A stretch of DNA of 64,000 nucleotides from an uncultured Victivallaceae bacterium (GTDB lineage Bacteria; Verrucomicrobiota; Lentisphaeria; Victivallales; GWF2-50-93). The position numbers and the translations under genes are program-made. The stretch covers positions 7,264 to 71,263 of the forward strand of contig CAZWRV010000011.1 of assembly GCA_964636325.1 (NCBI GenBank). Direction: 5' to 3'. How positions within the stretch are numbered: position 1 is the first letter of the stretch; each line of letters opens with the position of its first letter. This document shows, piece by piece, positions 31,723 through 58,963 of the stretch. The notes beneath the pieces were generated by a model. It made no database searches, had not been told where the DNA came from, and worked only from the letters and a program-made list of their open reading frames with translations.

Positions 31723-31783
31723 ATAGTTGGATAACTGGTTACTGTGCGCGGCGATTATTCGCCGCGATTATAAAAGGAGCACG

Positions 31784-33397: not shown

Positions 33398-33467
33398 TCA
33401 GCCCATGACCGTTTTTTTGAGTTTTGAAATTGGTTCGATGCGGCTGTAGCAGTATAACTTGTAAAAA

Positions 33468-33642: not shown

Positions 33643-33681
33643 GAAAACTGCGGGATTAGCAGTTTTGTCGGTTGGAAACTC

Positions 33682-33736
33682 GATGGAGGGCGAAGTCGTG
33701 CTGAGCCGCGGTTGAGCTTGGCTCAACCCTCCGGAA
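33682..33736 (+). repeat. 55-nt direct repeat, left copy (contains hairpin ggttgagc-ttg-gctcaacc)
   Basis: 54/55 identical to 35363-35417. Confidence 0.85.
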
Positions 33737-33826
33737 TAAGACAAAGATAGCGTCAAAGATGGTGAGTTTCAGGAAGTGCCGTATATCCGCCTCGGCGGAC
33801 AGTTTTGTCAGTGAGCAACAAGTAGT

Positions 33827-33965
33827 TTGCGCGCGGCGCGCGCAATAACACAGAACACGGCATTCCTCGTATGCGGGGTTTGCTTTTTGCGCGCGGCGCG
33901 CGCAATAACACAGAACACGGCATTCCTCGTATGCGGGGTTTGCTTTTTGCGCGCGGCGCGCGCAA
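33827..33965. repeat. array of three 19-nt GC palindromic units (ttgcgcgcggcgcgcgcaa) with identical 41-nt linkers, 60-bp period
   Basis: Units at 33827-33845, 33887-33905 and 33947-33965. Sequence lines 33841-33900 and 33901-33960 are identical. Confidence 0.9.
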
Positions 33966-33995
33966 GCTACCCGTCGAGTTTCAGGAGAGTTTCAA

Positions 33996-35294
33996 GTGGG
34001 CTTTTTTCAATGGATTAAAGAGCTTATGGGAGGTCCGCGCAGGCGCGACATCTCCCGTCTTTCCCCGTCCGAAGGGGAGGGTGCCGATGATTCCGCCGCG
34101 GAACTTGTGGACGTCTCTGGCGGCCCTTTGAAGGAGCACCACCGCCGTCTGGCCCTGCGCGACCGCCGCCTGCTTCCGAAAGTCAAGTCGGTCACGCGCG
34201 CGATGGGTTTGACAAGGCGCAAAAAGGTGATGGGGAAGGCCGAGGCGGACCGTCTTTTCAGCGGAACCTTGCGGACCCGTAACCGTAAGCTCCGCGACCT
34301 TTTGGCCGACGAGGAACAGCTCAAGCGCTACGGCCTGCCGTTGTGGAATACTGAAGAAGACCTCGCCGCGTGCCTCGGCGTTTCCATCAAGGAATTATGG
34401 TTCTTCTCCATCCACCGGCAGAGGGAGAGGCAGCCGCACTATGTCACGTTTTCAATCCTCAAGCGTTCGGGCGGGAGCAGGCTCATCATGGCGCCTAAGC
34501 GCCGCCTGAAGGCGATCCAGAGGAAACTACTGGCCCTGCTGGTCGAAAAGCTGCCGGTGAGCGAACACGCCCACGCATTCCGCCGGGGCAGAAGTGTCCG
34601 CACCGGCGCCGAACCCCACGTCCGCAAGCGCCTGATCCTGCATCTTGATCTGAAGGATTTCTTCCCTTCGGTCACTTTCGCGCGCGTCCGAGGGATGCTG
34701 ATCGCCTACGGGTATTCCTATCCGGTCGCTTCGACCCTTGCGGTCCTGATGACCGAGGCTGAACGCCAGCCGGTCGAGGAGGACGGGAAGGTGTACCATG
34801 TCCCCGTCGGGCCGCGCCACTGCGTGCAGGGTGCGCCGACGAGTCCGGGCATCTGCAATTCGATGCTTCTCCGGCTGGACCGGCGACTTGCCGGACTGGC
34901 GGCGAAGCATTCGCTTTCATATACGCGCTATGCCGACGACATCGCCTTCTCCGGCGACGTTGAACGTCCCGCCGCGCACAAGATCCGCGCGGCCGCGTCA
35001 CGGATCATCGCGGAGGAGGGATTCCTGGTCAACGCGGAGAAGACGCGCCTCATGGGAAGTGGAGCACGGCACTCCGTCACCGGGGTCGTTGTGAATCAGA
35101 CTCTTGGGCTTTCGCGCAAGGATCGGCGCCGCATGAGGGCGGCCGCGCACCGGCTTGTGAAAGGGCAGGCGGGCGCTTCCCCGGAACGCACGCAGGCCTG
35201 GCTCGACGGACGGATCGCTTACCTGCACATGCTCAACCCGCAGCAGGCGGACGCGATAAGGAATCTCCAATGTCCGACAAGGAATATTCATTGA
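33996..35294 (+). CDS. retron-type reverse transcriptase
   Basis: GTG start 6 nt after AGGAGAG. Motifs RGRSVRTGAEPH, LHLDLKDFFPSV, QGAPTSPGICN, YTRYADDIAFSG, RHSVTGVVVN. No maturase or endonuclease domain. About 130-aa N-terminal extension. Confidence 0.8.
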   Translation: MGFFQWIKELMGGPRRRDISRLSPSEGEGADDSAAELVDVSGGPLKEHHRRLALRDRRLLPKVKSVTRAMGLTRRKKVMGKAEADRLFSGTLRTRNRKLRDLLADEEQLKRYGLPLWNTEEDLAACLGVSIKELWFFSIHRQRERQPHYVTFSILKRSGGSRLIMAPKRRLKAIQRKLLALLVEKLPVSEHAHAFRRGRSVRTGAEPHVRKRLILHLDLKDFFPSVTFARVRGMLIAYGYSYPVASTLAVLMTEAERQPVEEDGKVYHVPVGPRHCVQGAPTSPGICNSMLLRLDRRLAGLAAKHSLSYTRYADDIAFSGDVERPAAHKIRAAASRIIAEEGFLVNAEKTRLMGSGARHSVTGVVVNQTLGLSRKDRRRMRAAAHRLVKGQAGASPERTQAWLDGRIAYLHMLNPQQADAIRNLQCPTRNIH

Positions 35295-42469: not shown

Positions 42470-44194
42470 ATGAGAATGTCAGCGCTGGTAGGAAGAAGGA
42501 TAAAGGAGGATCCGAAGGACGCCAAGACGGCGAGCCACAGGTTCCTCGTGAGGGGCGGATATATCAGGCCGGTGTCGGCGGGAATATATTCGATATTGCC
42601 GATCGGCAAGCGGATTCTGGCGAAGATCGAAAAGATCATCCGCGAGGAGATGGATGCCATCGACGGGCAGGAGGTGCTGATGCCGGTGGTCCTGCCGAGG
42701 GAGCTGTGGGAGGAGTCAGGGAGGTACAAGTCGGTCGGCGCGGAGCTGCTGCGCTTCAAGGACCGCAACGACAAGGACATGCTGCTCGGCATGACGCACG
42801 AGGAGGCGGTCGTCCACCTGCTGCGCACCGAAGTGAACAGCTACCGTCAGCTCCCTGTCATGCTCTACCAGATCCAGACGAAATACAGGGACGAGGCGCG
42901 GCCGCGCGCCGGCCTGATACGCGTCCGTGAGTTCACGATGAAGGACGCATATTCCTTCCACTCCTCGCAGGAGTGCCTTGACAAGTATTATCTGAAGGCG
43001 CACGCCGCATACGAGAGGATTTTCAGGCGTGTCGGGTTCAAGGACGTAATTTCGATAGAGTCCAATCCGGGGATGATGGGCGGCAAGGTTTCGCACGAGT
43101 TCATGGCGATTGCTGAGTGCGGCGAGGACACTATCTTCATTTCTCCTGGCGGAGAATACAAGTCGAACCGCGAAGTCGCGGTGTCGCCCGTGCAGTTTGC
43201 GAAGGCGGAACCGCTCCCGCTGGAGAAGGTCCACACGCCCGGAAAGAAGACGATCGAGGAGGTGGCGGCCTTCCTGGGCGCGAAGCCGGAGGACACCGGC
43301 AAGGCTGTTTTCTATGTCGGCACGGACGGCGCCCTCGTCTTCGCGATGATACGCGGCGACTTCGAGGTGAACGAGTCGAAGCTGTGCAACCACCTCAGGC
43401 AGCCGGAGCTGGCGTTCGCGAACGACGCTCAAATAAAGAAATGCGGCGCGGAACCCGGCTACGCCTCCCCGATGTCGCTGGATCCGGGCAAGGTCCGGAT
43501 CGTGGTGGACAGGTCCGTGGCAGAGTCCTCCAACCTGATCGTCGGAGCAAACGAGCCCGACTACCACTACAGGAACTTCAACTTCTCCCGCGACATCCAT
43601 GGCGCGGAAGTGGTCGACATCGCCACAGTCAGGGAAGGGGACCCTTGCCCCGTGACCGGCAAGCCGCTGCTGATGAAGCGCGGAATCGAGGTGGGTAACA
43701 TCTTCAAGCTAGGCACAAAATATTCGGAATCAATGAACTGCACGTTCCTTGACCAGAACGGCAAGCCGCACCCGATGATCATGGGCTGCTACGGCATAGG
43801 CGTAGGCAGGACGATGGCCGGGGTGATCGAGCAGTCATGCGACGCATACGGCCCGATATGGCCGATGTCCATCGCGCCCTACCAGCTCCACCTCTGCGCG
43901 CTCAATCCGAACCAGGCGGATGTCGGACCGGTATCCGACAAGCTCTACGCGGAACTCTGCGCCGCCGGGATCGAAGTCCTCTACGACGACAGGGGTGAGA
44001 AGGCCGGATTCATGTTCAACGACGCCGACCTCATCGGGGTTCCGTTCCGCATCACCGTCTCGCCGAAGACACTGGCCAGCGCCCAGGTCGAGTTCAAGAT
44101 CCGCGGCACCAAGGAGAACCACTACTTCCCGCTCGCCGGACTCGCCGAGAAGATGAAGGCGATGATCGCGGAGGAGATGGGGAAATATTGTTAA
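42470..44194 (+). CDS. proS: prolyl-tRNA synthetase
   Basis: MRMSALVGRRIKEDPKDAKTASHRFLVRGGYIRPVSAGIYSILP... 574 aa, bacterial-type with an editing-domain-sized insertion. Confidence 0.9.
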   Translation: MRMSALVGRRIKEDPKDAKTASHRFLVRGGYIRPVSAGIYSILPIGKRILAKIEKIIREEMDAIDGQEVLMPVVLPRELWEESGRYKSVGAELLRFKDRNDKDMLLGMTHEEAVVHLLRTEVNSYRQLPVMLYQIQTKYRDEARPRAGLIRVREFTMKDAYSFHSSQECLDKYYLKAHAAYERIFRRVGFKDVISIESNPGMMGGKVSHEFMAIAECGEDTIFISPGGEYKSNREVAVSPVQFAKAEPLPLEKVHTPGKKTIEEVAAFLGAKPEDTGKAVFYVGTDGALVFAMIRGDFEVNESKLCNHLRQPELAFANDAQIKKCGAEPGYASPMSLDPGKVRIVVDRSVAESSNLIVGANEPDYHYRNFNFSRDIHGAEVVDIATVREGDPCPVTGKPLLMKRGIEVGNIFKLGTKYSESMNCTFLDQNGKPHPMIMGCYGIGVGRTMAGVIEQSCDAYGPIWPMSIAPYQLHLCALNPNQADVGPVSDKLYAELCAAGIEVLYDDRGEKAGFMFNDADLIGVPFRITVSPKTLASAQVEFKIRGTKENHYFPLAGLAEKMKAMIAEEMGKYC

Positions 44195-47552: not shown

Positions 47553-49271
47553 ATGCCGGATATTTTCAGATTAAATTCATGGGGCCAGATGGAATTCAAC
47601 CGGCGCATACTGATTGTGGACGACGACGAATCCCTTCGATTCATCCTCTCGAAGTTCCTTTCGCATTCGGGTATGAGGAGCAAGGCCGGCGAAGTCATAT
47701 CGAGCGCCATCAGCGAGATATCAGGCCAGCCTCCGGTGGAGAAGGCCGGCCAGATCCTGGACGCGCCGTATGATGTGGATACTGCCCCGCAGGGCGAGAT
47801 CGGATACGAGAAGGTGAGGCAGGCCTTCGAAACAGGCCGCCCATACGCCCTCATGTTCGTAGACATGCGCATGCCCCCGGGCTGGGACGGTCTGAAGACG
47901 ATGGATATGGTATGGAAGGCCGACCCGAAAATACAGGTGGTCCTCCTCACCGCCTATTCCGACTATTCGTGGCAGCAGATGGTCGGCACCATAGGCAAGA
48001 GGGACAACTTCATCATCCTCAAGAAGCCTTTCGACATCGCCGAGATATCCCAGGTGGCCCTGGCGCTGACCCAGAAATACAACCTCGAGCGCGAGACCGA
48101 GGAGAGGATGGCCAAGCTGAGGCTCGCGGAAGAGGAGCTGAGGCTCGCCCAGGCTCACCTGGAGAACATCTTCCAGGCCATACCCTCCATGCTCCTCTCC
48201 GTCACCTCCGACGGGATCGTCCGCCATTTCAACTCTTCGGCGGGAAGCTTCATCCGGAAGCTTAACCCTGGCCGCGCCGCCGCCGGCTCGAAGTTCTGGG
48301 AGCTGATACCGGTTCTCGGCGGCGAATTCAGGAGCGACTTCGAGTCAATACTCCGCCCGCACCTTTACCACAAGGTCAGGCGCATAGAGACTGAGGGTTC
48401 CGAAAACAAGTTCCTGGACGTCTCCATGTTCCCGCTTTCTTCCGACGGGGCGGGGGACGGTATCGTCATAAGGATAGACGACGTCACCGAGGCAGTGAGG
48501 AAGGACGAGCATATCCGCCAGATGCAGAAGATGGAGACCGTCGGCAACCTCGCCATCGGAATCGCCCACGACTTCAAGAACGTCATAGGCGCCATCAGAA
48601 GCACCACCGACTCCATAAACTACTCACTTGAAAACACGACCCAGGGCAAGCAGCTCGCCCCCGTCATCAAGAGCGACCTCGAAATCATCGAGGAGTCCGT
48701 GCTCCGCGGCCAGGACATGATCAAGCAGCTCATGTCCATATCCAACCACCAGGAGCTGCCCATGACAGACTCCGACCTCAACGTCCTCGCCCAGAACGTC
48801 CTCAGGATTTGCCGCAACATCTTCCCGGAATCGATAGAGTTCAAGACCAAGTACTACGAGACCCCGGCGGTCGCAAGAGTCTATCCGGTCCAGATCGAAC
48901 AGGTCCTCCTCAACCTCTGCGTCAACGCCTGCCATGCGATGACCACGATGCGCCCACCGGAGGAATGGCAGGGCGGCTCCCTGATACTGACGGTGGACAA
49001 GATCTACGTCGGCGAGAACATGGTCGAATACATCCCCGAGGCGAGCATAGGCTACTACTGGATACTCAGGGTGGGGGACACAGGAGTCGGAATGGACAAG
49101 GAGACACTGAAGAAGATATACGACCCCTTCTTTACCACCAAGAAGGAGGGCAGCGGCCTCGGCCTCACAATGGTCTACAACATTATCAAGCAGCACCGCG
49201 GCTTCATCGACGTCTTTTCGGAGCCCGGAAACGGAACCACCTTTTTCATCTTTATACCGTCGCCCAGTTGA
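47553..49271 (+). CDS. receiver-PAS-histidine kinase (cytoplasmic hybrid)
   Basis: REC (ILIVDDDESLRF...FVDMRMPPGWDGL...LLTAYSDYSW), PAS-like region, H-box IAHDFKNVIGAI, ATPase boxes GDTGVGM and GSGLGL. Confidence 0.8.
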   Translation: MPDIFRLNSWGQMEFNRRILIVDDDESLRFILSKFLSHSGMRSKAGEVISSAISEISGQPPVEKAGQILDAPYDVDTAPQGEIGYEKVRQAFETGRPYALMFVDMRMPPGWDGLKTMDMVWKADPKIQVVLLTAYSDYSWQQMVGTIGKRDNFIILKKPFDIAEISQVALALTQKYNLERETEERMAKLRLAEEELRLAQAHLENIFQAIPSMLLSVTSDGIVRHFNSSAGSFIRKLNPGRAAAGSKFWELIPVLGGEFRSDFESILRPHLYHKVRRIETEGSENKFLDVSMFPLSSDGAGDGIVIRIDDVTEAVRKDEHIRQMQKMETVGNLAIGIAHDFKNVIGAIRSTTDSINYSLENTTQGKQLAPVIKSDLEIIEESVLRGQDMIKQLMSISNHQELPMTDSDLNVLAQNVLRICRNIFPESIEFKTKYYETPAVARVYPVQIEQVLLNLCVNACHAMTTMRPPEEWQGGSLILTVDKIYVGENMVEYIPEASIGYYWILRVGDTGVGMDKETLKKIYDPFFTTKKEGSGLGLTMVYNIIKQHRGFIDVFSEPGNGTTFFIFIPSPS

Positions 49272-49372
49272 AAGGGCAACGTCCGGAACTATCTTATTCA
49301 ACAAAGAATTTAGACGGAGCACACCACGCCGTTTTGCCGGATTCATACCGATAGGACAGGCAGCGAGGGCCG

Positions 49373-51514
49373 ATGATTGACGCAGTCAGGAAGCTTCCAC
49401 TCCTCTACAGGACATACGCCATGCTGGGCATCATGTTCCTCTGCGTCATTGTCCTCAACATATTCGCGTATTTCTCCATAATGCACATCGGCGAAATATA
49501 CGCCTCATGGTCAAACGCCGCCGTGAACCTCAAGCTGAAGGTGATGGCCGCGGACATCACCCTAAGGGCACTCGTCACAGGAAGCACCGTCAAGGACATG
49601 AACGGGGTATGGGATCCGCTGGACCAGGCCGAGTCAATAGCGAAATCTTCCCTGAAGCTCGCTGACGATTCGCCGCTCCTTTCGAGCATGAAGGACTACA
49701 GGCAGTTTCTCGTCGACATCTTCGTCGTCCCCGAGGGCCAGGAGCCGAAGCCGATACCACAGGACTTCTTCACCACCTACACAGGCAAGTTCGACGCCCT
49801 TATCGGGAACATCGAGACATTCAAGTCGCTGATGGACAAATCGATCTCCGGGCGCCTGCGGATATTCAAGGTCATCTATGTTTTCATCATGGTGAACATC
49901 TTGCTGCTTTTCGTGATCGTCGTATTCTCTGTAGGCAAGCACACCAGGATGTGCGAGATTGTCCAGAACGAGCTGGCCGACACCAAGAACAACCTCGACA
50001 TCATACTCAACTCAACCGACTCGCTCCTTGTCACCGTCGACAAGGAGATGACGATCACCCACCTCAACAACGCTGCGTCAAGGTATCTCGGCGCCGATCC
50101 GGCACAGTCCGTAGGCCGTAAGCTCGCCCAGACGGCTCCCATGCTCGAAGGCTACCTGCCGGAGATATCGAAGGTTTTCTATTCCGGAAAGCCGGCCGAA
50201 TTCTACCGGGAGAAGATACTTTTCTGCGACGGCACCGAAAGGTTCTACAACATCACCGCCAACCAGCTCCTCCACGGCGCCGGTGGAGTCGTCATACGCA
50301 TAGAGGACATCACGGCGCCCGAAGTCCGCGAGGAGCAGATCAGGCAGTCCCAGAAGATGGAGGTCGTCGAAAACATCATCGAAAGCCTCACCAACGACTT
50401 CAACAACGTCCTCGGCGCCATAAACGCTTCCGTATCCATGCTCAAGTTCACCTCCGAAAAGGGGCCGGTCCAGCCGTCCGACCTGAAGAACAGCATAGAG
50501 ATAATAGAGAACTCCATAGAGCGCGCAGTCGTCATGGTCCGCCAGCTCACGTCCATCTCGAAGAGACAGGAACTCACCCTTTCGCCCGTCGACCTCAACA
50601 TCTCCGTCAGCCATGTCATCAAGATATGTGAAAAGTCCTTCGACAAGCGGATATCCCTCAAGACCGCCTTCGCCGCCTTGAGGGCCATGGTCAAGGGCGA
50701 CCCCGCCCTCATCGAGACGGTCATACTCAACCTCTGCGAGAACGCCGCCCACGCAATGACCATAATGAAGGGTGCAAGCCAGCAGTGGGGCGGCGAACTG
50801 AGAATTTCCGTCACTTATGTCCTGCCGGACTCCAACTTCAGGGCCATGCACCCGAACGCCACTAAGAAGTCATACTGGGCTATCAGCGTCTCCGACACTG
50901 GTGTCGGGATAGACCGCGAAGTCATGCCTCACATCTTCGACCCCTTCTACTCCACCAAGGGCAAGAACCGGGGCATGGGGCTCGGGCTCTCAACGATAAG
51001 GGAAATAGTGGGGCAGCACAGCGGATTCATAGACATAGCCTCAGTCCCCGGCGAAGGCACGACCGCCACCGTCTATATTCCCGAAATAGAGGAACAGATT
51101 TCCAAAGTCCTCAAGTTCCAGGTCGAGGCCGAAGTCCCTATCCCCACAGGCGCAGGACTGATACTGGTAGTCGACGACGAAGGCATAATGCGCAAGACCG
51201 CCCACAGCATCCTCACCAAGCTCGGCTACGAAGTCATCTTCGCCGAGAACGGCATCCAGGCCATCGACACCTACAGCCGCAGAGGCAAGGACATCAGCAT
51301 GGTCATGCTCGACCTCTCCATGCCAAAGATGGACGGCAAGGAAACCTTCGTCGAACTCAAGAAGATCAATCCGCTCATAAAGGCCATAATCGTCTCGGGC
51401 ATGGAGACCGACAAGCGAATCAACGAGATGATCGCCATGGGCGCGAAGAGCTATGTCCCCAAGCCGTATTCGATGATTTCACTGGCGCAGGCGGTGAAGA
51501 AGGTCATCGGATGA
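49373..51514 (+). CDS. membrane sensor hybrid histidine kinase with C-terminal receiver
   Basis: Two TM segments, PAS-like region, an H-box-like TNDFNNVLGAI, ATPase boxes DTGVGI and GMGLGL, REC (LVVDDEGIMR...DLSMPKMDG). Confidence 0.8.
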   Translation: MIDAVRKLPLLYRTYAMLGIMFLCVIVLNIFAYFSIMHIGEIYASWSNAAVNLKLKVMAADITLRALVTGSTVKDMNGVWDPLDQAESIAKSSLKLADDSPLLSSMKDYRQFLVDIFVVPEGQEPKPIPQDFFTTYTGKFDALIGNIETFKSLMDKSISGRLRIFKVIYVFIMVNILLLFVIVVFSVGKHTRMCEIVQNELADTKNNLDIILNSTDSLLVTVDKEMTITHLNNAASRYLGADPAQSVGRKLAQTAPMLEGYLPEISKVFYSGKPAEFYREKILFCDGTERFYNITANQLLHGAGGVVIRIEDITAPEVREEQIRQSQKMEVVENIIESLTNDFNNVLGAINASVSMLKFTSEKGPVQPSDLKNSIEIIENSIERAVVMVRQLTSISKRQELTLSPVDLNISVSHVIKICEKSFDKRISLKTAFAALRAMVKGDPALIETVILNLCENAAHAMTIMKGASQQWGGELRISVTYVLPDSNFRAMHPNATKKSYWAISVSDTGVGIDREVMPHIFDPFYSTKGKNRGMGLGLSTIREIVGQHSGFIDIASVPGEGTTATVYIPEIEEQISKVLKFQVEAEVPIPTGAGLILVVDDEGIMRKTAHSILTKLGYEVIFAENGIQAIDTYSRRGKDISMVMLDLSMPKMDGKETFVELKKINPLIKAIIVSGMETDKRINEMIAMGAKSYVPKPYSMISLAQAVKKVIG

Positions 51515-52020
51515 CGGCGATATCCTCAACTTCCATATCCCTTGACCTCCATGAGCTGTCCGGAAACTTCATAGGTTAGGAAGCAGTGGACAAGCCCCCT
51601 TGCGGAGTCGGCAGTTCCGTCTCGACAAGACCGGGCCCGATGCCCCCAGAATGATTTTTTAATGGTATCTATTTTTTTGATTTTTTCATCGCGCTGAAAA
51701 ATGGATGCTTAATCATCCGGAAATCAAGCGGGAGGGGCAGTTACACAGTCTCATCCCTGAAAATCCCATGTTTCCCCGGCATTTCCCTTTGCTGATTGGG
51801 TTTTCCCCTCCGGGCCCGCCGCGGCGGGTGCAGGAAGAGGTTTTTCTGCAAAGTTCTGCCCGGTTTTACCCGCTCCCATCCTTGAAATCCCGTCCTGACT
51901 TGCTACCTTCAACCTATGGTTAAAATCAAAATTCCTAACAGTCAGTAACCTATTGGGGATTTGGTCACTTGGAATTTAAATATCCACAAGGACATATGCT
52001 GTAACTCTTGCAAGGGGCTA

Positions 52021-52581
52021 ATGAGGGTAAGGACATACGGCGATCCGGCGCTTGCGCGCAAAGCGTTGCCTGTCAGGGCGATGGACAAGGCAGTCCTTCG
52101 CCTCGCCGGATCGCTGGTGGAGATGATGCACGAGCACGACGGGATCGGCCTTGCCGCGACGCAGCTGGGGAAGGAACTGCGGATGGTTGCGCTCAACGTC
52201 CCCCAGCCCAGGAGGCAGGACGGCTCGCTCGCCCATCCGCTTTCGCCCGGGGAGATCGAGCTTCTTCCACTCATGCCTCTGGTTCTGGTGAACCCTGAAA
52301 TAGTCTCGTTTTCGCCGTTCGAAGGAGTCCGCGAGGAGGGTTGCCTCAGCGTACCGAAGATATACGCCCCGGTCTCGCGGCCTGTGTCGGTAATACTCAG
52401 GGCACGCGTCTGCGAAGGCGCCGAGATCATGCTGGAATGCGCCGGACTTCTCGGAAGGGCAGTCCAGCACGAGATAGACCATCTCGACGGGATTCTTTTC
52501 GTCCAGAGGGTCGTGCCGGATGAGCTGGAGAAGATCAGCAAGGAACTTGAAAAGCTCGCCAAGGGTAAGGGAGGGAACTGA
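52021..52581 (+). CDS. def: peptide deformylase
   Basis: GIGLAATQLG, EGCLSVP and HEIDHLDG motifs. Start moved to Met21 (MRVRTYGDP) of ORF 51961..52581. Confidence 0.9.
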   Translation: MRVRTYGDPALARKALPVRAMDKAVLRLAGSLVEMMHEHDGIGLAATQLGKELRMVALNVPQPRRQDGSLAHPLSPGEIELLPLMPLVLVNPEIVSFSPFEGVREEGCLSVPKIYAPVSRPVSVILRARVCEGAEIMLECAGLLGRAVQHEIDHLDGILFVQRVVPDELEKISKELEKLAKGKGGN

Positions 52582-53501
52582 TGGACGCTCTCCCGAAGAA
52601 ATCGTTCCTGTGGGCGGCGTTCGGCGTCTGCAAGGGGACTGATGCGTTCGTCGAGATCGCCATGTTCCCCACGATTAAGACAGCCTTCCATTTCATACTA
52701 TTCGCCTGCATCGCGTCTGTAATTTCGGCCGGACTCAGGACTTCCTTAACATACGCAGGGACCATCGGGAGATTCTGCGCCGCGTTCGAGGGGCAGTTCG
52801 GACATGTTTCAAATTCAGGGGCGAAAGGTGTTCTGCCTTCCCTTAGCCCGGAGACTTCGCGCTCGATGGTGGTCGACAATATCAGGGTGGACTACATTTC
52901 CGGGGAGGGGAAGGGGCCAGGCTTCAGGCCTGACGACGGGATTTCGAACTGCGGACTGCTATGGATGCCGAAGTCCATGGTCTTCTGGGGAAGGAACGGG
53001 CCGAAGTTCCGCTTCTTCTCGCTGGCCGACCTTTCACCGAGCCGGAACAAGATATCGACTGGTACCGCGGATCAGGTGCTGGCCTACGCACAGGCGACGC
53101 CGCTGCCGGCCGACCTTGCCTCGCAGATCCCTTCAGCAAGCCTCATCACGCTGAAGAACGCCCTGATCGTATCGGCCTTCCTGCTCAGCGGCGCCAACGT
53201 CTTCCTTGTGACAGTCCTGTTCATCCCGCTTTTCGCGCTTTTCTCCACGTTCTTCTTTTCGGCATCTGCCACCGGCATGATCATTCCGATGAGGTTCAGG
53301 AACATCCTGAACGTGGCAATATATTCAAGCTTCCCCGGCATACTGATCGCGTCGCTGTTCCATGGCTTCGACATCCCGTACGTTGAATACCAGACAATGT
53401 GCGTAATCTGCTTCCTGATATATTTCACAGTAGTGCTCAACAATCTGCAGAGGAAGGCTAGGCCTTCGTCCAGCGAGGAGTCCGACTATGACGATTTCTG
53501 A
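52581..53501 (+). CDS. polytopic membrane protein, unknown function
   Basis: 306 aa with several hydrophobic helices. The start overlaps the def stop (TGATG). Confidence 0.55.
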   Translation: MDALPKKSFLWAAFGVCKGTDAFVEIAMFPTIKTAFHFILFACIASVISAGLRTSLTYAGTIGRFCAAFEGQFGHVSNSGAKGVLPSLSPETSRSMVVDNIRVDYISGEGKGPGFRPDDGISNCGLLWMPKSMVFWGRNGPKFRFFSLADLSPSRNKISTGTADQVLAYAQATPLPADLASQIPSASLITLKNALIVSAFLLSGANVFLVTVLFIPLFALFSTFFFSASATGMIIPMRFRNILNVAIYSSFPGILIASLFHGFDIPYVEYQTMCVICFLIYFTVVLNNLQRKARPSSSEESDYDDF

Positions 53502-54231
53502 AGTATGTCCGGGCGGACCGCTGTCGGAATACGGCGCCGCCAGATGGTATGAGAACCTTTCAAGCCATACGTTTCCGACCAGCTTCGTTAAACTGCGCCC
53601 GATGGAGGTGCAGAGCCTGGCCGAGGGCGAGAAGTCCGGCAGCCATGCCGATGAAGTGATCGCCAGACTGTCGCAGCCGATGAACGCCTATCCCGGCAAC
53701 TGCTTCGTCTTCACCGACCATTATGCTCCGACCGACACTGAGAGGTTCGCGTTGAAGGGCGGCGCCGTTTATTCGCCCGAGAGCGCATGGAAGTTCCTGG
53801 CTCTTAGCGCGAAGATACGCAGGGCTGCGTCCGAAGGTCTGGTGGAGCATCTCTGCGTGCGCCCGTTCAGGCGGATCACCAGGCCACGCGAGTTCAGGCT
53901 CTTCATTCACAAGGGTGTCCTGAGCGCCATGAGCCAGTACTGGCTCGTCCGCCATTTCAGGAGGCTGCAGGGGGTGAGGCAGCGCTACTGGGATATGGCC
54001 GAAAAGTTCGTCACCGAGATCTCATGGCTGCTGCCGCAGCACACGCTGGTGATGGACGTTTATTTCACCGCCAAGGGGCAGATACTCATAATAGACATCA
54101 ATCCCTGGGGACCTCCGACGGATCCGCTGCTCATGCAGACCTGGGAGCGGGACTGGGATGCCCCCGTCCGGATAGCGACCATAATCCCGCCGCCGGAAAC
54201 CATTTCCGGAGACGTGAAGGTTTCATTTTAG
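53488..54231 (+). CDS. CDC123/D123-family ATP-grasp-like protein
   Basis: LCVRPFRRITRPREFRLFIHKGVLSAMSQY and VMDVYFTAKGQILIIDINPWGPPTDPLLMQTWERDW match the D123 family blocks (EFRcFV..isQ; D.y....liDfNP....TD.LLF.W). Overlaps the upstream gene by 14 nt. Confidence 0.55.
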   Translation: MTISEVCPGGPLSEYGAARWYENLSSHTFPTSFVKLRPMEVQSLAEGEKSGSHADEVIARLSQPMNAYPGNCFVFTDHYAPTDTERFALKGGAVYSPESAWKFLALSAKIRRAASEGLVEHLCVRPFRRITRPREFRLFIHKGVLSAMSQYWLVRHFRRLQGVRQRYWDMAEKFVTEISWLLPQHTLVMDVYFTAKGQILIIDINPWGPPTDPLLMQTWERDWDAPVRIATIIPPPETISGDVKVSF

Positions 54232-54313
54232 CGTCCTTATTTTTGGCATCTATGCGGGGTTGAGTGTTTGTTGTCGGACATCAAATCTGGTTGTGGGTGA
54301 AGCCCGCCTTAAG

Positions 54314-56194
54314 ATGAAATCATATCTGCTCGTATTCTTTCTTTTCTTCTCCGCGGCCTTGCACGGCGCAGGGATCGCAGTCGAGCGCCTCGAATGGGGG
54401 TTCGACGGCAAGGTGTCGCTGAACCAATTCAACATGCTGCGGGTGCTTTTCAGCAACCAGTCGGACAAGCCGTTCGACGGCGAGGTGATCCTGCAGAGGT
54501 CCTATTTCGGCGGGGGGGCGGGCCCGGGGGGGGTTTGTTGGGGGGGGGGGGGGGGGGGCGGGCCGCGCATCGGCCTTCCGTCCGCCAGGGAACTTTATAT
54601 CACGCCGCATTCAGCGAAATGGGTGCTTTTCTCGCCGTTCGTGAGATCCGACAACATGGAATGGATCATCAGGTGGGGCGACGGTAAGGGGGCGTCCTAC
54701 AACGTGTCCAGGCCCCCGGCGGGTCCTCCGGCCACGGTGCTTCTGCGTCCCGATAACATCCTCTACGGGAAGTCGAAGCTCCGCAGCTTCGAGGACGCAT
54801 TCTTCCCGCCGTCGGTTTCCCTCTGCGCCGGTCTGGACACCGTCGTGATCGCCGAACCGCCCCGCTTCACTCCGGTCCAGTGCCAGGCGTTCCTCGACTG
54901 GCTGCGGAGCGGTGGTACCGCCGTGGTCGTCCACGGCCCGGACGGCAGATATCCTCTCTTTCCGCCGGAGCTTGCGGTGCTGGACTCCACGGCGGAGGAT
55001 GCCGCGGGCGCGGGAAGGATCGCCAGGTTCCCCGTCGCAACTGCGGATGTGTCGCTGGAGTTCCTGAGGGGGAAGGGGCTTGTGGACAGGCCCGACGGAG
55101 ACGGCGGCCAGGCGCACGCGCCCGGCGACTACTACTATTACTCGAGCTATGACAGCATACAGAGTTCGATGTCACAGTATTTCAAGGTACTTGTGGCGAC
55201 CGAGCACAACTGGTGGCTCATATTTTCCGTGGCTCTAGGGTATGTGTTCGTAATATCGTTCGGCAACCAGTATGTCGCGCGGAAAACGAGGAACACTGCA
55301 ATCCCTTTCATCTTCTTCGGCGCCATGGTGGCGCTCTTCTGCGTGTTTTTCGCGTTTGTCGGCAGGAGGGGGACCGGCGAGATTACCTGCGTCCACGACA
55401 TCAGCTACGCCCGCGACTGCGGGGACGGCGCGTTCAACGTGTCCCAGTGGGCCAGCGTCTTCGTGACTTCGACCGGGCGCTACACCGTGGCCCATCCCGG
55501 CGAATACAGGTACTACGCCGACTGCTCGTACGATGACACCAACGTCGACGGAGTCATCTCCAGCGGCAAGGCCGGGAACGTGCGCCTCAGGATCCCGCTG
55601 TATTCCTCGAAGGACATCTTCTGCCAGGGATGCATGGAATGTCCGGGCGCGGCATTCTCCCTTAAGGACGTCGGATTCGGCAAGGATTCGCTTTCCTCCT
55701 TGGAAGTCGCAGCCTCCCCAAAATTCGGCGGCAATATCCATGGCGCATGGGCGGTCCACAAGGACAGGCTCTACACGATGACGGCTAAGGACTCCTCAAG
55801 CTTTTCAATCGGGCGCGGGCAGCCTCTTGACAAATATCTTGAGGAATGGGCCCGGAGTCACGCCAACGACTTCTACAAATACATGTATGGATATGGCGAA
55901 AAGAAAAAAGTTGACGAGATGGAAATCCTCTCCACTCTCAAGTCTTCCATCGTTCCGCGGCTCATAGCCAGGAGCCTGGAGAAAGGCGGAGATTCCCAGG
56001 ACGGAAGGACTGCAAAGATCAGGAAACCTACGTCCGGCGCACTGGAGCTGTATGTCCTGGCCGACACTCCGCCCACCTTTCAGGCGGTCGGAGAAAATCT
56101 TGGAGTCAAGAACGGGCGTACCCTCTTCCACTTCAGCTTCACGGTGAAGGAGCCTGCAGACGGAAAGGGCGGGGCACCGCCGGAGGGGAAGTAA
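54314..56194 (+). CDS. membrane protein with secreted N-terminal domain; contains Gly-run encoded by a G19 tract
   Basis: Start moved to MKSYLLVFFLFFSAALHG (signal peptide). Central TM pair. AGLDTVVIAEPPRFTPVQCQAFLDWLRSGGTAVVV is loosely DUF4350/GldG-like. Precedes ABC-2 transporter genes. Confidence 0.6.
   Translation: MKSYLLVFFLFFSAALHGAGIAVERLEWGFDGKVSLNQFNMLRVLFSNQSDKPFDGEVILQRSYFGGGAGPGGVCWGGGGGGGPRIGLPSARELYITPHSAKWVLFSPFVRSDNMEWIIRWGDGKGASYNVSRPPAGPPATVLLRPDNILYGKSKLRSFEDAFFPPSVSLCAGLDTVVIAEPPRFTPVQCQAFLDWLRSGGTAVVVHGPDGRYPLFPPELAVLDSTAEDAAGAGRIARFPVATADVSLEFLRGKGLVDRPDGDGGQAHAPGDYYYYSSYDSIQSSMSQYFKVLVATEHNWWLIFSVALGYVFVISFGNQYVARKTRNTAIPFIFFGAMVALFCVFFAFVGRRGTGEITCVHDISYARDCGDGAFNVSQWASVFVTSTGRYTVAHPGEYRYYADCSYDDTNVDGVISSGKAGNVRLRIPLYSSKDIFCQGCMECPGAAFSLKDVGFGKDSLSSLEVAASPKFGGNIHGAWAVHKDRLYTMTAKDSSSFSIGRGQPLDKYLEEWARSHANDFYKYMYGYGEKKKVDEMEILSTLKSSIVPRLIARSLEKGGDSQDGRTAKIRKPTSGALELYVLADTPPTFQAVGENLGVKNGRTLFHFSFTVKEPADGKGGAPPEGK
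54540..54558 (+). repeat. G19 homopolymer inside CDS (with G7 at 54512-54518 and G8 at 54526-54533)
   Basis: Counted directly. Encodes W-GGGGGGG-P in frame. Confidence 0.95.
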
Positions 56195-56411
56195 GAGAGT
56201 GGGGGGGGGCGCGCCAGACAGTAGGAAAGCCGAAAGGTGAATTGTAGGTCGCGGGCCACGAAGTCATCGTGTGATTGAGTTGCCGGATTGCTGATAATGT
56301 GGGCTCGTCCGCAAGTCCCTGTCCCTCTCCATCACGCCGATAGGTTGCGACAGGCATCGGCAGGTTTCGAGAATTGGATTTTGCTGATCAAAGAACACAT
56401 GAGGAAATACC

Positions 56412-57386
56412 ATGTCTGAATCATCAAACGTCCCGGACGTCCCGGCCCTAGCTTTCCTGAACCTATTCCACAAGTTCAAGTACAACCACGTCCTGAAGAA
56501 CGTCACGTTCTCGGTCGCGAGGAACTCGATACACGGCTTCGTGGGACCGAACGGCGCGGGGAAGACGACGACGCTGAAGCTGTCGGCCACGATATTGAGG
56601 CCGCAGGGCGAGAATGTCATCAAGGTCTTCGGGCGCGACGTCGGCAGGGACTATGTGGAGGTGAGGAAGAGGATAGGTTTCATGCCCGACTACTTCACCA
56701 TGTACAAGCAGATGACCGTCTTCGAATACCTGGACTTCTTCGCGGCGGCCTACGGCCTCGTGCAAAGGGACCGCGACAAGGTGATCGGCGACCTGCTCGA
56801 CCTTACGGACATGGGCGCCAGAAAGAACGACCGCCTGCCGACGCTCTCGCGGGGCATGCAGCAGCGCGTAAGCCTGGCGCGTGTTCTGGTGCACGATCCG
56901 GAGCTGCTCCTGCTGGACGAGCCGGCCAGCGGCCTCGACCCCAGGGCCAGGATCGAGCTCATGGAGATACTCAAGGAGCTGCAGGGCATGGGCAAGACGA
57001 TATTCATCAGCTCGCACATCCTCAGCGAGCTGGCCGATCTCTGCGACAGCGTGACGATCATCGATACGGGCACGATAAAATATTCCGGGCCGATCGTGGA
57101 CCTGCTAAGGCACGGCGGCGCCGAAACACAGGTCTACAGGATCGGTCTCAAGGAGGCCTGCCCCGCCGCGGCCGAGGAGCTCAAGAGGACGAAAGGCGTC
57201 ATCGAGGTCGCAACAGAAAGGGACGGCCTTGACCTGAAAGTCTCGATCGACTGCGCGCAGGCCTCGACGAATTCAATCATCGAGGCCGCGATGAAGGGCG
57301 GCGCGCAGATCGCCTTCTTCAAGGAGGAGATGAAGCATCTCAACCAGGTCTTCCTGGACCTCACCAGCAGGGGAAAGGACATCTGA
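56412..57386 (+). CDS. ABC transporter ATP-binding protein (ABC-2 type)
   Basis: Walker A GPNGAGKTT, signature LSRGMQQR, Walker B LLLLDEP. Confidence 0.9.
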   Translation: MSESSNVPDVPALAFLNLFHKFKYNHVLKNVTFSVARNSIHGFVGPNGAGKTTTLKLSATILRPQGENVIKVFGRDVGRDYVEVRKRIGFMPDYFTMYKQMTVFEYLDFFAAAYGLVQRDRDKVIGDLLDLTDMGARKNDRLPTLSRGMQQRVSLARVLVHDPELLLLDEPASGLDPRARIELMEILKELQGMGKTIFISSHILSELADLCDSVTIIDTGTIKYSGPIVDLLRHGGAETQVYRIGLKEACPAAAEELKRTKGVIEVATERDGLDLKVSIDCAQASTNSIIEAAMKGGAQIAFFKEEMKHLNQVFLDLTSRGKDI

Positions 57387-58963
57387 TGAGAATCCCCCTC
57401 CCCAACATGGTCCTCTTCAAATACAGCCTTCGTACGGACATCCTTCAGTGGCAGAACTATCTGTCGCGCCTGATCATGATGATCATAATACTCTTCATAC
57501 TGCTGGAGTTTGTCCTTCCCGGAGCGTTCAGGAGGTCCGGCAGCGGCCTTAACTTCTTCGTCTCGATATCCATGATCAATATCGTGTTCATCAACCTTTT
57601 GGCCGTGTCGTTCTTCTCGTCCGCGGTCACGGAGGAGAAGGAGGCCGAGTCGCTGGCGCTTCTCCTGATGACCGGCCTGAGCCCGTTCACGATGCTGCTG
57701 AGCAAGAGCACCAGCAAGCTGATCCTCGGGATGACGCTTATCGTAGCGCAGATACCGTTCATAGTTCTTGCAGTTACGCTGGGCGGGGTGGGCTTGGACC
57801 AGATATTTTCAGTTTACCTGGTGATACTGGCGCATACGGTCCTGCTCTGCAGCATGGCCCTGCTTCCGTCGGTTATATTCAACGAGACCGTCACGGCGGC
57901 ATGCTTCACGTTCCTGGGGATCGCTGCATTCCACTTCTCCACCGCATACTGGGAGACCCTCAACTTCCTTTCGCCGTTCTATGCCGTGATCCAGATGACA
58001 AGGAATTATTCCTTCGACATCTTCGTTTTGGTGTGGAATCCGGCCGTAAACATCTTGGTTGGCGCGGCCATCTTCGTCATTTCGTTCGGACTCTTCAACC
58101 GGTTCTCGCGCTCCGGCGGGAAGGGAGGCGAGGGGAGGATCGCCGCTCTGAAGCAGATTTCCGGCAGGAACCGCTTCAAGGGCTGGCTCGGGGCGGGAAG
58201 GGCGTGGAGATACGCGTTCGCATGGAAGGAATACTTCTTCACTGCGGGCGGAAAGCTCACCGCGCTGAGCAGCGCCGTTACTTTCGCAGTCCTCTTCGCC
58301 GGCATATACATATATTTCGGATATGTGAAGGGCGACATGTCGTTCAAGGATCTGCTCTGGGGTATACTGGTGGTCTCGATCATCGCCTGCATATTGAAGA
58401 TGATATATGTCACCGGAACCTTCCTTGGCAACGAGGTATGGAGCAAGACCCTGCCGGCGCTGGTGATTCTGCCCGTGCCTATAAAGAGGATACTGCGCCA
58501 GAAGCTCGCCGGCGGGATGCTGATGCTCCTCCCTTCCCTCGGCTTCATCGCATTGTCAATCGTTCTCCTGATAGGAATGGACTTCGACAACTTCTGCAGG
58601 GACGTGGACAACATACGCCTGGACGAGTTCTTCACCGAAAGCGCCATGGTGACGATGTCATATCTGGCGCTCTACGCCATAAAGCTCGTCTTCTTCTTCT
58701 ACCTATACGCATACGTCTCGATGGTGGTGAGATACGGCTCGATCGTCGTCGCCGGCCTGATATTTATCGGCGTTGGTATCGCGCTGGGCCTCCCAGGCTA
58801 CATACTTCTTGCGACCAGCGCCATTATGACGGGGGTGGGCGGGTCGTTTTTAGGCGGCATGTCCATCGGCATCATGATAAGCGCGGCGGGGCACCTCGTG
58901 GGCATATTTCTCCTGAGGAGCATGTCCTACAGGAAGATCGAACAGCTCGCGGGAAGCATATAG
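57386..58963 (+). CDS. ABC-2-type transporter permease (large, about 12 TM)
   Basis: 525-aa highly hydrophobic protein, start-stop coupled to the ATPase gene. Confidence 0.7.
   Translation: MRIPLPNMVLFKYSLRTDILQWQNYLSRLIMMIIILFILLEFVLPGAFRRSGSGLNFFVSISMINIVFINLLAVSFFSSAVTEEKEAESLALLLMTGLSPFTMLLSKSTSKLILGMTLIVAQIPFIVLAVTLGGVGLDQIFSVYLVILAHTVLLCSMALLPSVIFNETVTAACFTFLGIAAFHFSTAYWETLNFLSPFYAVIQMTRNYSFDIFVLVWNPAVNILVGAAIFVISFGLFNRFSRSGGKGGEGRIAALKQISGRNRFKGWLGAGRAWRYAFAWKEYFFTAGGKLTALSSAVTFAVLFAGIYIYFGYVKGDMSFKDLLWGILVVSIIACILKMIYVTGTFLGNEVWSKTLPALVILPVPIKRILRQKLAGGMLMLLPSLGFIALSIVLLIGMDFDNFCRDVDNIRLDEFFTESAMVTMSYLALYAIKLVFFFYLYAYVSMVVRYGSIVVAGLIFIGVGIALGLPGYILLATSAIMTGVGGSFLGGMSIGIMISAAGHLVGIFLLRSMSYRKIEQLAGSI

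What the first reader, a model, noticed from the sequence alone, without database searches (positions are those of the whole stretch)
53488..54231. Bacterial CDC123/D123-like ATP-grasp encoded in the peptide deformylase operon
The 247-aa protein carries the two hallmark blocks of the D123 family: REFRLFIHKGVLSAMSQY and VMDVYFTAKGQILIIDINPWGPPTDPLLMQTW. In eukaryotes CDC123 is an eIF2 assembly factor, and the family has been described as a divergent ATP-grasp clade predicted to perform protein modification; bacterial members are rare and uncharacterised. Here it overlaps the preceding membrane-protein gene by 14 nt, and that gene is start-stop coupled to def. It is followed by a membrane protein and an ABC-2 transporter. 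This places a putative protein-ligase next to a nascent-chain-processing enzyme.
Basis: partly seen in the sequence, partly recalled or inferred. Interest (0 to 1): 0.55.

Follow-up and report, generated by a model that had tools for sequence, protein, structure and literature searches.

The report
Lysine-less bacterial CDC123 beside deformylase
This is a genuine bacterial relative of CDC123, the eukaryotic assembly factor for translation factor eIF2; it is conserved across Lentisphaerota and sits next to enzymes that process newly made proteins, but it lacks the two ATP-binding lysines that define its family.

Summary
ORF 53488-54231 (247 aa) matches Pfam D123 (62.9 bits, cutoff 24). Its confident AlphaFold model (pLDDT 90) superposes full-length on S. 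pombe and human Cdc123 (TM 0.70-0.75). It overlaps the upstream membrane-protein gene by 14 nt, and that gene shares TGATG with def.

The linkage is conserved. def->DUF1189-family membrane protein->D123 is collinear in 68 of 77 Lentisphaerota genomes, and DUF1189->D123 in 75 of 77. The downstream 644-aa protein and the ABC-2 transporter are not conserved and are not part of the unit.

Two things are new.
- In Lentisphaerales-type relatives the same clade sits in map->ffh(SRP54)->D123, and its sister lineage has ffh->D123->rseP. This repeats the link to factors acting at the ribosomal tunnel exit.
- The clade is monophyletic and has replaced both "R2K" basic residues (human K104->F75, R111->T82). 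It keeps ExR, the catalytic Asp and DxN. It has become basic (pI ~8.7) and ends in an invariant VSF-COOH.

Lentisphaerae CDC123 homologues were listed in 2015 and NCBI already names some, so the family assignment is not new. The contexts and the altered active site are undescribed in the searchable literature. Function is inferred: most likely a CDC123-like factor in co-translational protein maturation or targeting.

The parts
52021..52581 (+). def, peptide deformylase (186 aa from ATG 52021; the longest ORF starts at TTG 51961). First gene of the conserved three-gene unit.
   Evidence: Pfam Pep_deformylase 132.6 bits (cutoff 22.8). NCBIfam NF001159 134.7 bits (cutoff 125) and TIGR00079 121.3 bits (cutoff 103.95). 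The GIGLAATQ, EGCLS and HEIDH motifs are visible in the translation. The start at 52021 comes from the gene call. A def gene lies upstream of the pair in 68 of 77 related loci.
52581..53501 (+). 306-aa membrane protein of the DUF1189 (Yip1-like) family. It has one N-terminal TM helix (~34-55), a soluble segment of ~130 aa (56-185) and four C-terminal TM helices (~190-292). It is translationally coupled to def on one side and D123 on the other.
   Evidence: The window copy alone scores only E 0.75 against DUF1189. However, 23 of 26 orthologues match PF06691 (best 4.1e-9) and 12 of 26 match Yip1. Family-averaged hydropathy gives the TM segments. A DUF1189-family ORF lies directly upstream of D123 in 75 of 77 loci. 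Junctions were checked.
53488..54231 (+). 247-aa cytoplasmic CDC123/D123-family (R2K.1) ATP-grasp protein of the lysine-less Lentisphaerota clade.
   Evidence: Pfam D123 62.9 bits. AF2 model pLDDT 90.4, pTM 0.85. Foldseek top 10 are all Cdc123, TM 0.70-0.75. 478 homologues at E <= 1e-3; the 120 listed are 54-66% identical. 181 species genomes encode a relative.
53710..53733 (+). [quoted passage not shown] F75 aligns with human K104 and T82 with human R111, so both R2K basic residues are replaced. A80 aligns with human A109.
   Evidence: Profile alignment to 8phd. In the 120-sequence MAFFT alignment the K104 column is K/R in 99 of 120 and the R111 column is K/R in 91 of 120. All 20 clade representatives lack K/R at the first position. 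The role of R111 is from PMC12860950.
53890..53898 (+). [quoted passage not shown]
   Evidence: Invariant in the clade. E in 119 of 120 and R in 118 of 120 family-wide.
54055..54102 (+). D190 (human D233) through D203-I-N205 (human D246-x-N248): the acidic and Asn residues of the ATP-grasp Mg/phosphate site.
   Evidence: Invariant in the clade. D190 is D in 119 of 120, position 203 is D or E in 118 of 120, and N205 is N in 114 of 120. Direct alignment to 8phd is shown.
54208..54228 (+). C-terminal tail G241-D-V-K-V-S-F247. This clade-specific tail ends in VSF-COOH and is predicted to be extended (pLDDT ~74).
   Evidence: 95 of 120 clade proteins end in NVSF and 26 of 33 of the 231-aa subgroup end in KVSF. 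The tail is absent from other D123 proteins. It is clade-specific.

Best explanation
Shown:
- The gene encodes a compact, cytoplasmic member of the CDC123/D123 branch of ATP-grasp proteins.
- It belongs to a monophyletic clade found in Lentisphaerota, where it looks like a vertically inherited housekeeping gene.
- It is the last gene of a translationally coupled operon: def -> DUF1189 membrane protein -> D123.
- Sister lineages place the same protein directly after map-ffh, or between ffh and rseP.
- The clade keeps the nucleotide/Mg site residues (R125, E135-x-R137, D190, D203-x-N205). It has replaced both phosphate-clamping K/R residues, has become basic, and has gained an invariant VSF-COOH tail.

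Inferred:
- It works in the manner of eukaryotic CDC123. That is, it is a nucleotide-gated assembly or escort factor that grips a partner protein, rather than a RimK-type polymerising ligase.
- Its client belongs to the machinery that processes and targets nascent chains at the ribosomal tunnel exit and the membrane: SRP/Ffh, deformylase or Met-aminopeptidase, or a membrane partner such as DUF1189 or RseP.
- The remodelled phosphate site would change how, or whether, ATP is hydrolysed. Clade-specific R86, K90, R128 and R134 are candidate substitutes for the lost lysines.
For: Family and fold.

Housekeeping character:
- At least 181 species genomes carry it, and all 80 retained are Lentisphaerota, including the cultured Victivallis vadensis DSM 14823.
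- The conserved wider neighbourhood is rsmI, a TolC-like gene, gltX, def, DUF1189 and D123.
- There is no PADLOC hit.

Operon:
- Overlapping junctions with Shine-Dalgarno-like sites in the window, and gaps mostly -4 to +4 nt in other genomes.
- 68 of 77 loci are collinear with def, and 75 of 77 have DUF1189 upstream.

Independent second and third contexts:
- map -> ffh -> D123 in L090, L092, L094, L095 and L096.
- ffh -> D123 -> rseP in L085.
- Neighbour identities pass NCBIfam equivalog cutoffs.
- The K-bearing, ffh-linked P0137 is sister to the K-less clade.

Active site.

Basic pI and VSF tail.

Literature: the only activities reported for CDC123 are eIF2 assembly and ATPase activity (PMC12860950; PMC8844851 abstract, listed).
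Against: - No experiment exists on any member of this clade.
- Gene adjacency within one phylum can persist by descent without a functional link. D123 is always the distal gene, so it could simply be riding on a constitutive promoter.
- Some deep-branching members have other neighbours: D123 -> AMP-binding enzyme -> aroFGH, a polyprenyl synthase, or a pilin-like gene.
- Bacteria have no eIF2-gamma, and conservation of the partner-binding groove was not tested.
- Invariance of ExR and the acidic triad fits real catalysis at least as well as a chaperone role.
- Whether ATP still binds without K104 and R111 equivalents is unknown.
Confidence: 0.4

Rival explanations
1. It is a true ATP-grasp amide ligase. 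It activates a carboxylate as an acyl-phosphate and joins it to an amine on a protein. The most attractive target is the free alpha-amino group that exists only after deformylase or Met-aminopeptidase has acted. Other candidates are a translation protein such as ribosomal protein S6 (the RimK substrate) or EF-P.
For: - The ExR motif marks the peptide-bond-forming assemblage of ATP-grasp enzymes (PMC4431377).
- E135/R137, D190 and D203/N205 are invariant across ~55% identity divergence.
- RimK and Ddl are the next-best structural matches.
- D123 follows def or map, both of which generate free N-termini.
- In non-Victivallales lineages D123 is start-stop coupled to an AMP-forming adenylating enzyme. 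In the two loci where the gene positions were printed (L092, L094), efp lies two genes downstream.
Against: - The strand-2 lysine, described as absolutely conserved in ATP-grasp enzymes, is replaced, and so is the compensating second K/R of the R2K clade.
- No ligase product has been reported for any CDC123-family protein. Only eIF2 assembly and ATPase activity are reported.
- Neither efp nor the AMP-binding gene is near D123 in the window or in the 80 Victivallales-type loci.
- TM-scores to RimK and Ddl are only ~0.4.
Confidence: 0.22
2. The linkage to def, map and ffh is incidental. The gene rides on strongly expressed housekeeping operons, and its real role is unrelated to translation. One possibility is a small-molecule or metabolic ligase working with the AMP-binding enzyme and DAHP synthase seen beside it in other lineages.
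For: - D123 -> AMP-binding -> aroFGH or D123 -> aroFGH occurs in L084, L086-L088, L099, L100 and L102.
- Other deep branches have unrelated neighbours.
- All evidence for the translation theme is positional.
- Downstream genes are variable in Victivallales.
Against: - Two or three different arrangements each place D123 directly after a tunnel-exit factor: def, map-ffh, and ffh with rseP.
- Only a handful of such genes exist per genome, so repeated chance adjacency is unlikely. My rough estimate is about 1e-5 before allowing for post-hoc choice of category; this is inference, not a computed statistic.
- Junctions are overlap-coupled.
- The only characterised homologue also acts in translation.
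Confidence: 0.25
3. It is a conflict-system component, like the bacterial CDC123 types described in 2015. Those were an auxiliary toxin of T6SS polymorphic-toxin loci or a secreted effector aimed at eukaryotic hosts.
For: These are the only roles proposed so far for bacterial CDC123 proteins (PMC4431377). A lysine-bearing compact D123 (P0170) does sit in a phage-like or mobile context.
Against: - No VgrG, Hcp, PAAR or SUKH-type neighbours appear among the window genes scanned.
- The conserved neighbours in 77 loci are housekeeping genes.
- There is no PADLOC match.
- The distribution is phylum-wide and synteny-preserving, which is the opposite of the sporadic, HGT-driven pattern reported for conflict genes.
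- The sequence shows no signal peptide and no long disordered secretion tail.
Confidence: 0.03

Closest known systems
Eukaryotic CDC123 (human, PDB 8phd; S. pombe, PDB 4zgp), the ATP-grasp assembly factor for eIF2
   Same: - Same Pfam family.
- Same two-domain fold over the whole chain (TM 0.70-0.75).
- Same ExR, Asp and DxN residues, and the same A-P-x-D loop.
- A connection to the translation apparatus.
   Different: - About 90-100 residues shorter, with no low-complexity inserts or C-terminal extension.
- K104 and R111 equivalents are replaced by F/S and T.
- A family-conserved Asp (window position 113) is Ala.
- Basic rather than acidic.
- Invariant VSF-COOH tail.
- No eIF2-gamma exists in bacteria, so the client must differ.
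Lentisphaera araneosa CDC123 homologue (gi 494490064) and other 'lentisphaerae' R2K.1 members listed by Burroughs, Zhang and Aravind 2015
   Same: Same clade. The supplementary alignment shows VVGLDSCMPTDS and KTREFRLF, so that protein is also lysine-less.
   Different: The paper used it only as a search seed. It describes neither the loss of the R2K lysines nor the def/DUF1189 or map-ffh contexts.
Bacterial CDC123 of T6SS polymorphic-toxin loci and Legionella effector-type CDC123
   Same: Same family (R2K.1) and bacterial origin.
   Different: Those keep the two K/R residues, are sporadically distributed and sit in conflict loci. This clade is vertically conserved, lysine-less and sits in housekeeping operons.
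RimK (poly-alpha-glutamate ligase acting on ribosomal protein S6) and D-Ala-D-Ala ligase
   Same: ATP-grasp fold with ExR and acidic Mg ligands. RimK acts on a translation protein.
   Different: Only a distant structural match (E ~5e-6, TM ~0.4). Those enzymes keep the phosphate-binding lysines and the glycine-rich loop.

Membership tests
CDC123 / D123 (Pfam PF07065; R2K.1 of Burroughs et al. 2015) | Sequence match to the family profile above the curated threshold | tested here: met
   62.9 bits against a gathering score of 24, E 3.6e-17. The match covers only profile positions 149-252 of 300.
CDC123 / D123 (Pfam PF07065; R2K.1 of Burroughs et al. 2015) | Whole-chain fold of solved Cdc123, with N-terminal and C-terminal ATP-grasp domains | tested here: met
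   The AF2 model has pLDDT 90.4. Foldseek ranks 1-10 are all Cdc123 chains at E 2.5e-13 to 1.5e-12, TMq 0.70-0.75, with 231-261 aligned columns. Giant-virus CDC123 proteins are the best viral matches.
CDC123 / D123 (Pfam PF07065; R2K.1 of Burroughs et al. 2015) | [quoted passage not shown] | tested here: met
   E135-F-R137 aligns with human E177/R179. It is invariant in the clade and present in 118-119 of 120 sequences family-wide.
CDC123 / D123 (Pfam PF07065; R2K.1 of Burroughs et al. 2015) | Catalytic Asp (human D233) and the D/E-x-N motif (human D246-x-N248) | tested here: met
   D190 and D203-I-N205 align directly with 8phd. They are invariant in the clade.
CDC123 / D123 (Pfam PF07065; R2K.1 of Burroughs et al. 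2015) | The 'absolutely conserved' Lys at the end of RAGNYA strand 2 (human K104) | tested here: not met
   Window F75. All 20 clade representatives have F, S, N, Y or G. The column is K/R in 99 of 120 sequences, and among the non-clade sequences only one outlier (P0172) lacks it.
CDC123 / D123 (Pfam PF07065; R2K.1 of Burroughs et al. 2015) | Second conserved K/R in the strand 2-3 loop (human R111, which contacts the ATP beta/gamma phosphates) | tested here: not met
   Window T82, invariant in the 31-sequence clade alignment. The column is K/R in 91 of 120 sequences.
CDC123 / D123 (Pfam PF07065; R2K.1 of Burroughs et al. 2015) | ATP binding and hydrolysis; binding of a client protein's tail (eIF2-gamma domain III in eukaryotes) | not testable with these tools
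   This needs model coordinates with a ligand, or biochemistry. Bacteria have no eIF2-gamma.
T6SS-associated or Legionella-effector types of bacterial CDC123 | Neighbourhood with VgrG, Hcp, PAAR and SUKH immunity genes, or long secretion-signal extensions | tested here: not met
   The window genes scanned with Pfam, including those flanking the operon, are histidine kinases, def, DUF1189, a weak DUF4350 protein, ABC transporters and GH130. Conserved neighbours in related loci are rsmI, a TolC-like gene, gltX, def and DUF1189. The protein is only 247 aa with no extensions.
RimK-type ATP-grasp peptide ligases | Close structural or sequence match, phosphate-binding lysines, and a glycine-rich strand 2-3 loop | tested here: not met
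   Foldseek E ~5e-6 with TM ~0.4. There is no Pfam RimK hit. The lysines are absent.
DUF1189 (PF06691, Yip1-like), for the 306-aa partner | Profile match and one-plus-four TM topology | tested here: inconclusive
   The window protein itself scores E 0.75, below threshold. However, 23 of 26 syntenic orthologues match (best 4.1e-9) and the topology is consistent. The single-sequence AF2 model is unusable at pLDDT 44.7.
Peptide deformylase, for the first gene | Profile match above curated cutoffs and the three catalytic motifs | tested here: met
   Pfam 132.6 bits against 22.8. NF001159 134.7 against 125. TIGR00079 121.3 against 103.95. The GIGLAATQ, EGCLS and HEIDH motifs are in the translation.

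The most novel reading that the evidence does not exclude
A whole bacterial phylum uses a remodelled CDC123 as a housekeeping factor of co-translational protein maturation or targeting. It would act with deformylase, Met-aminopeptidase and SRP at the ribosomal tunnel exit or the membrane, possibly by modifying or escorting freshly deformylated N-termini or by assembling SRP. This would mean that CDC123's connection to translation is an ancestral bacterial trait, not something eukaryotes built from a bacterial conflict effector as proposed in 2015. It would also provide a simple bacterial system for working out what CDC123-type ATP-grasp proteins do chemically.
Probability: 0.3. Interest if true: 0.8.

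Novelty: new variant of a known kind. Interest (0 to 1): 0.55.

Why it matters
CDC123 is essential in eukaryotes, yet its chemistry is unresolved. It has an ATP-grasp fold and ATPase activity but no known ligase product. The published view of its origin is that it came from bacterial toxin or effector systems.

A vertically inherited bacterial clade wired into def and map-ffh operons offers two things:
- A hypothesis that the family's link to translation and protein biogenesis predates eukaryotes.
- A natural variant in which both phosphate-clamping basic residues are replaced while the Mg-site residues stay invariant. This can be tested directly to find out which parts of the site matter.

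It also points to a possible additional player, together with an uncharacterised DUF1189 membrane protein, in bacterial N-terminal processing and SRP targeting. That pathway is a drug target through deformylase inhibitors. If the linkage proves incidental, the finding reduces to an annotated family member with an unusual active site.

Tried and rejected
- Structure prediction of the DUF1189 partner failed. No fold search was run on it.
- The alignment of deep-branching members (A3) was too divergent for the metagenome scan. The scan with the 231-aa subgroup gave only 11 loci.
- Source names for the deep-branching proteins and their Ffh neighbours were empty, so their taxonomy is undetermined.
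- Promoter and terminator scans inside the operon were at chance level.
- Rfam found nothing in the 500-nt leader upstream of def, and only one tRNA in the whole window.
- PADLOC gave no hit for D123 or the membrane protein.
- The downstream 644-aa protein and the ABC-2 transporter were considered as part of the system and rejected: 0 of 80 loci.
- gltX and efp adjacency were considered as clues to glutamylation or EF-P modification. I did not adopt them. The gltX-def-DUF1189-D123 and D123-AMP-binding-pdxJ-efp orders are each confined to one lineage.
Its residue indices (K104, R111, D233, D246, N248) and its blocks agree with the paper and with the 8phd alignments.
Full report
OBSERVATION

- It matches Pfam D123 (PF07065) at E 3.6e-17, 62.9 bits against a gathering score of 24. 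It also has sub-threshold matches to the sister R2K_2 and R2K_3 models.
- NCBIfam has no model that matches it.
- Human CDC123 (8phd) is the best PDB sequence match: E 2.5e-6 with the single sequence and 8.3e-15 with a profile of the clade.

The junctions are as described.
- The def stop codon and the start of the next gene share TGATG at 52579-52583.
- That gene's stop (53499-53501) lies 14 nt after the D123 ATG.
- Both downstream starts have Shine-Dalgarno-like purine runs.

The def gene probably starts at ATG 52021 (186 aa), the start used in the gene call on identical metagenome contigs.

FOLD

An AlphaFold2 model built on 31 clade sequences is confident, with mean pLDDT 90.4 and pTM 0.85.
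- Foldseek against the PDB returns ten Cdc123 chains first (S. pombe 4zgp, 4zgo, 4zgn and 4zgq; human 8phd and 8phv). E-values run from 2.5e-13 to 1.5e-12 and TM-scores from 0.70 to 0.75 over essentially the whole chain.
- RimK and D-Ala-D-Ala ligases follow at E ~5e-6 and TM ~0.4.
- Against viral models the best matches are giant-virus CDC123 proteins.

So the protein is a full, compact CDC123 fold, although the Pfam match covers only the C-terminal half.

DISTRIBUTION

- The word-indexed search found 478 homologues. The top 120 are 54-66% identical and 227-256 aa long, and every name given by a source points to Lentisphaerae or Victivallales.
- A scan of one genome per GTDB species found 181 genomes encoding a relative. 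All 80 retained are Lentisphaerota, including Victivallis vadensis DSM 14823.
- An exhaustive HMM search of 1.84 billion representatives found 1911 proteins at E <= 1e-3 but only 27 below 1e-30. About 14 full-length clade representatives score above 219 bits, then scores fall to ~100 bits for other D123 proteins.
- NCBI already names some members 'cell division cycle 123 family protein'.
- Burroughs, Zhang and Aravind 2015 listed lentisphaerae among bacterial CDC123 holders and used the Lentisphaera araneosa protein as a search seed (PMC4431377).

The family assignment is therefore not new, and bacterial members are not rare in this phylum.

GENE CONTEXT

tblastn with the window's proteins and clustering of ORFs in the 80 loci give the following.
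- def -> membrane protein -> D123 is collinear in 68 of the 77 loci that have enough upstream sequence.
- A membrane protein of the same family lies directly upstream of D123 in 75 of 77.
- In six loci a Skp/OmpH-like gene (five of them) or another gene replaces def.
- Only two loci lack both def and the membrane protein.
- Intergenic distances are mostly -4 to +4 nt.
- The wider conserved order is rsmI, a TolC-like gene, gltX, def, membrane protein, D123.
- The 644-aa protein and the ABC-2 transporter downstream in the window are found in none of the 80 loci. They are not part of the unit.

The membrane protein has no Pfam hit on its own. However, 23 of 26 orthologues match DUF1189 (best 4.1e-9) and 12 match Yip1. 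Family-averaged hydropathy gives one TM helix, a ~130-aa soluble segment and four more TM helices. DUF1189 is uncharacterised in the searchable literature.

A SECOND AND THIRD CONTEXT

Look-ups of deep-branching clade members gave different but thematically related neighbourhoods.
- In the ~231-aa Lentisphaerales-type subgroup the order is map (type I Met-aminopeptidase) -> ffh (SRP54) -> D123 -> AMP-forming adenylating enzyme -> pdxJ -> efp. This order is seen in L092, L094 and L095, and in L096 as far as that contig extends (it ends within the AMP-binding gene). L090 has map -> ffh -> D123 -> pdxJ.
- P0137, which still has the strand-2 lysine, sits in ffh -> D123 -> rseP with overlaps on both sides.
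- The neighbour identities pass NCBIfam equivalog cutoffs: TIGR00500 232.7 against 171.35, TIGR00959 552 against 473, and TIGR00054 200 against 148.
- Other deep branches show D123 -> AMP-binding -> aroFGH, D123 -> aroFGH, or unrelated neighbours.

Deformylase, Met-aminopeptidase and SRP all act on the nascent chain at the ribosomal tunnel exit; this is established knowledge. So D123 has been placed directly behind such a factor in at least two independent arrangements. A lysine-bearing compact D123 outside the clade (P0170) sits in a phage-like context, which matches the conflict contexts described in 2015.

ACTIVE SITE

The 2015 paper defines the R2K clade by two basic residues in the RAGNYA domain: an 'absolutely conserved' Lys in strand 2 (human K104) and a second K/R in the next loop. 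In human CDC123 that second residue, R111, contacts the beta/gamma phosphates of ATP (PMC12860950).
- The profile alignment to 8phd, anchored on the shared A-P-x-D motif, and a 120-sequence MAFFT alignment both put window F75 at K104 and T82 at R111.
- All 20 clade representatives lack K/R at the first position, and all but one lack it at the second. Among the other sequences, all but one (the outlier P0172) keep the first.
- R125, E135-x-R137, D190 and D203-x-N205 are invariant.
- In a neighbour-joining tree the lysine-less sequences are monophyletic (20 of 20) and their sister is P0137. The ffh linkage therefore appears older than the loss of the lysines.
- Other clade-specific invariant changes are D77, A113 (Asp in 83 of 99 others), R128, R134, H156, R159 and W223, plus the C-terminal G-x-x-x-V-S-F.
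- The clade is basic, with median pI 8.7 against 5.2 for other D123 proteins. It ends in VSF-COOH almost without exception.

INTERPRETATION

Shown:
- A real, conserved gene with CDC123 family membership by sequence and fold.
- A translationally coupled def-DUF1189-D123 operon conserved across Victivallales-type genomes.
- A recurrent link to map and ffh in other lineages.
- A remodelled phosphate site with the Mg site retained.

Inferred:
- The protein acts in co-translational protein maturation or targeting.
- It acts in the CDC123 manner, as a nucleotide-gated binding or assembly factor, rather than as a polymerising ligase.

I give this reading 0.4. A genuine amide ligase, for example acting on N-termini freed by PDF or MAP, gets 0.22. 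Incidental linkage with an unrelated role, possibly metabolic and tied to the AMP-binding enzyme, gets 0.25. A conflict-system role gets 0.03.

COMPARISON AND NOVELTY

The protein passes four of six testable defining features of CDC123/R2K.1 and fails the two that give the R2K clade its name. It is best filed as a divergent sub-clade of the family.

No paper in the searchable library links CDC123 or R2K proteins with deformylase, SRP or DUF1189. My verdict is a new variant of a known kind, of moderate interest. The claims of rarity and of ligase function do not hold as stated.

Noticed in passing
window 29854-35294 (+): A three-gene block that looks like a type XIII retron defence system. 31727-33397 matches PADLOC SWIM_XIII (E 5e-147). 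33996-35294 matches RT_XIII (E 1.5e-128; Pfam RVT_1). The 622-aa protein at 29854-31722 has no Pfam or PADLOC hit and may be the third component. I did not look for the msr/msd non-coding RNA.
   Followed up: partly
window 54208-54228; clade-wide: The extreme C-terminus of the D123 clade is almost invariably [N/K]-V-S-F-COOH, on an extended tail. This resembles a hydrophobic C-terminal docking peptide of the kind PDZ domains bind. In one sister lineage the next gene is the PDZ-containing protease RseP (L085), though that protein's tail reads VDC. The tail's partner is unknown.
   Followed up: partly
L092 7696-9405, L094 7698-9389, L084 6739-8559, L095, L096, L097, L099: Outside Victivallales, D123 is start-stop coupled to a 560-606-aa AMP-forming adenylating enzyme. 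This enzyme falls below every NCBIfam cutoff and resembles long-chain fatty-acid-CoA ligases. It is often followed by pdxJ and efp, or by aroFGH. This pairs two carboxylate-activating enzymes, and its significance is unexplained.
   Followed up: partly
window 47553-51514 (+): Two large hybrid sensor proteins lie immediately upstream of def. One is a 572-aa receiver-PAS-histidine kinase by sequence appearance. The other is a 713-aa membrane histidine kinase with a C-terminal receiver. In most relatives gltX and a TolC-like gene occupy this position instead, so the window genome has a local rearrangement. A ~500-nt leader (51515-52020) precedes def, with no Rfam hit.
   Followed up: no
window 54260-58963 (+): A 644-aa membrane protein with a Gly-rich stretch and a weak DUF4350 match. 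It is followed by a GldA/DrrA-like ABC ATPase and a 525-aa multi-TM permease with no Pfam hit. Together these resemble a GldG-like auxiliary protein with an ABC-2 exporter. The set is specific to this genome and not linked to D123 elsewhere.
   Followed up: partly
L107 (contig of P0170): A lysine-bearing 243-aa D123 protein lies in a phage-like stretch of small ORFs. The stretch includes an HNH endonuclease, an Exo_endo_phos protein and an acVLRF1/eRF1-like release-factor domain protein.
   Followed up: no
window 24230-27502 (-) and 42470-44194 (+): A 1090-aa protein made almost entirely of HEAT repeats (HEAT_2, 362 bits), and a prolyl-tRNA synthetase with an editing domain. Both look ordinary; I record them only for the window inventory.
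   Followed up: no
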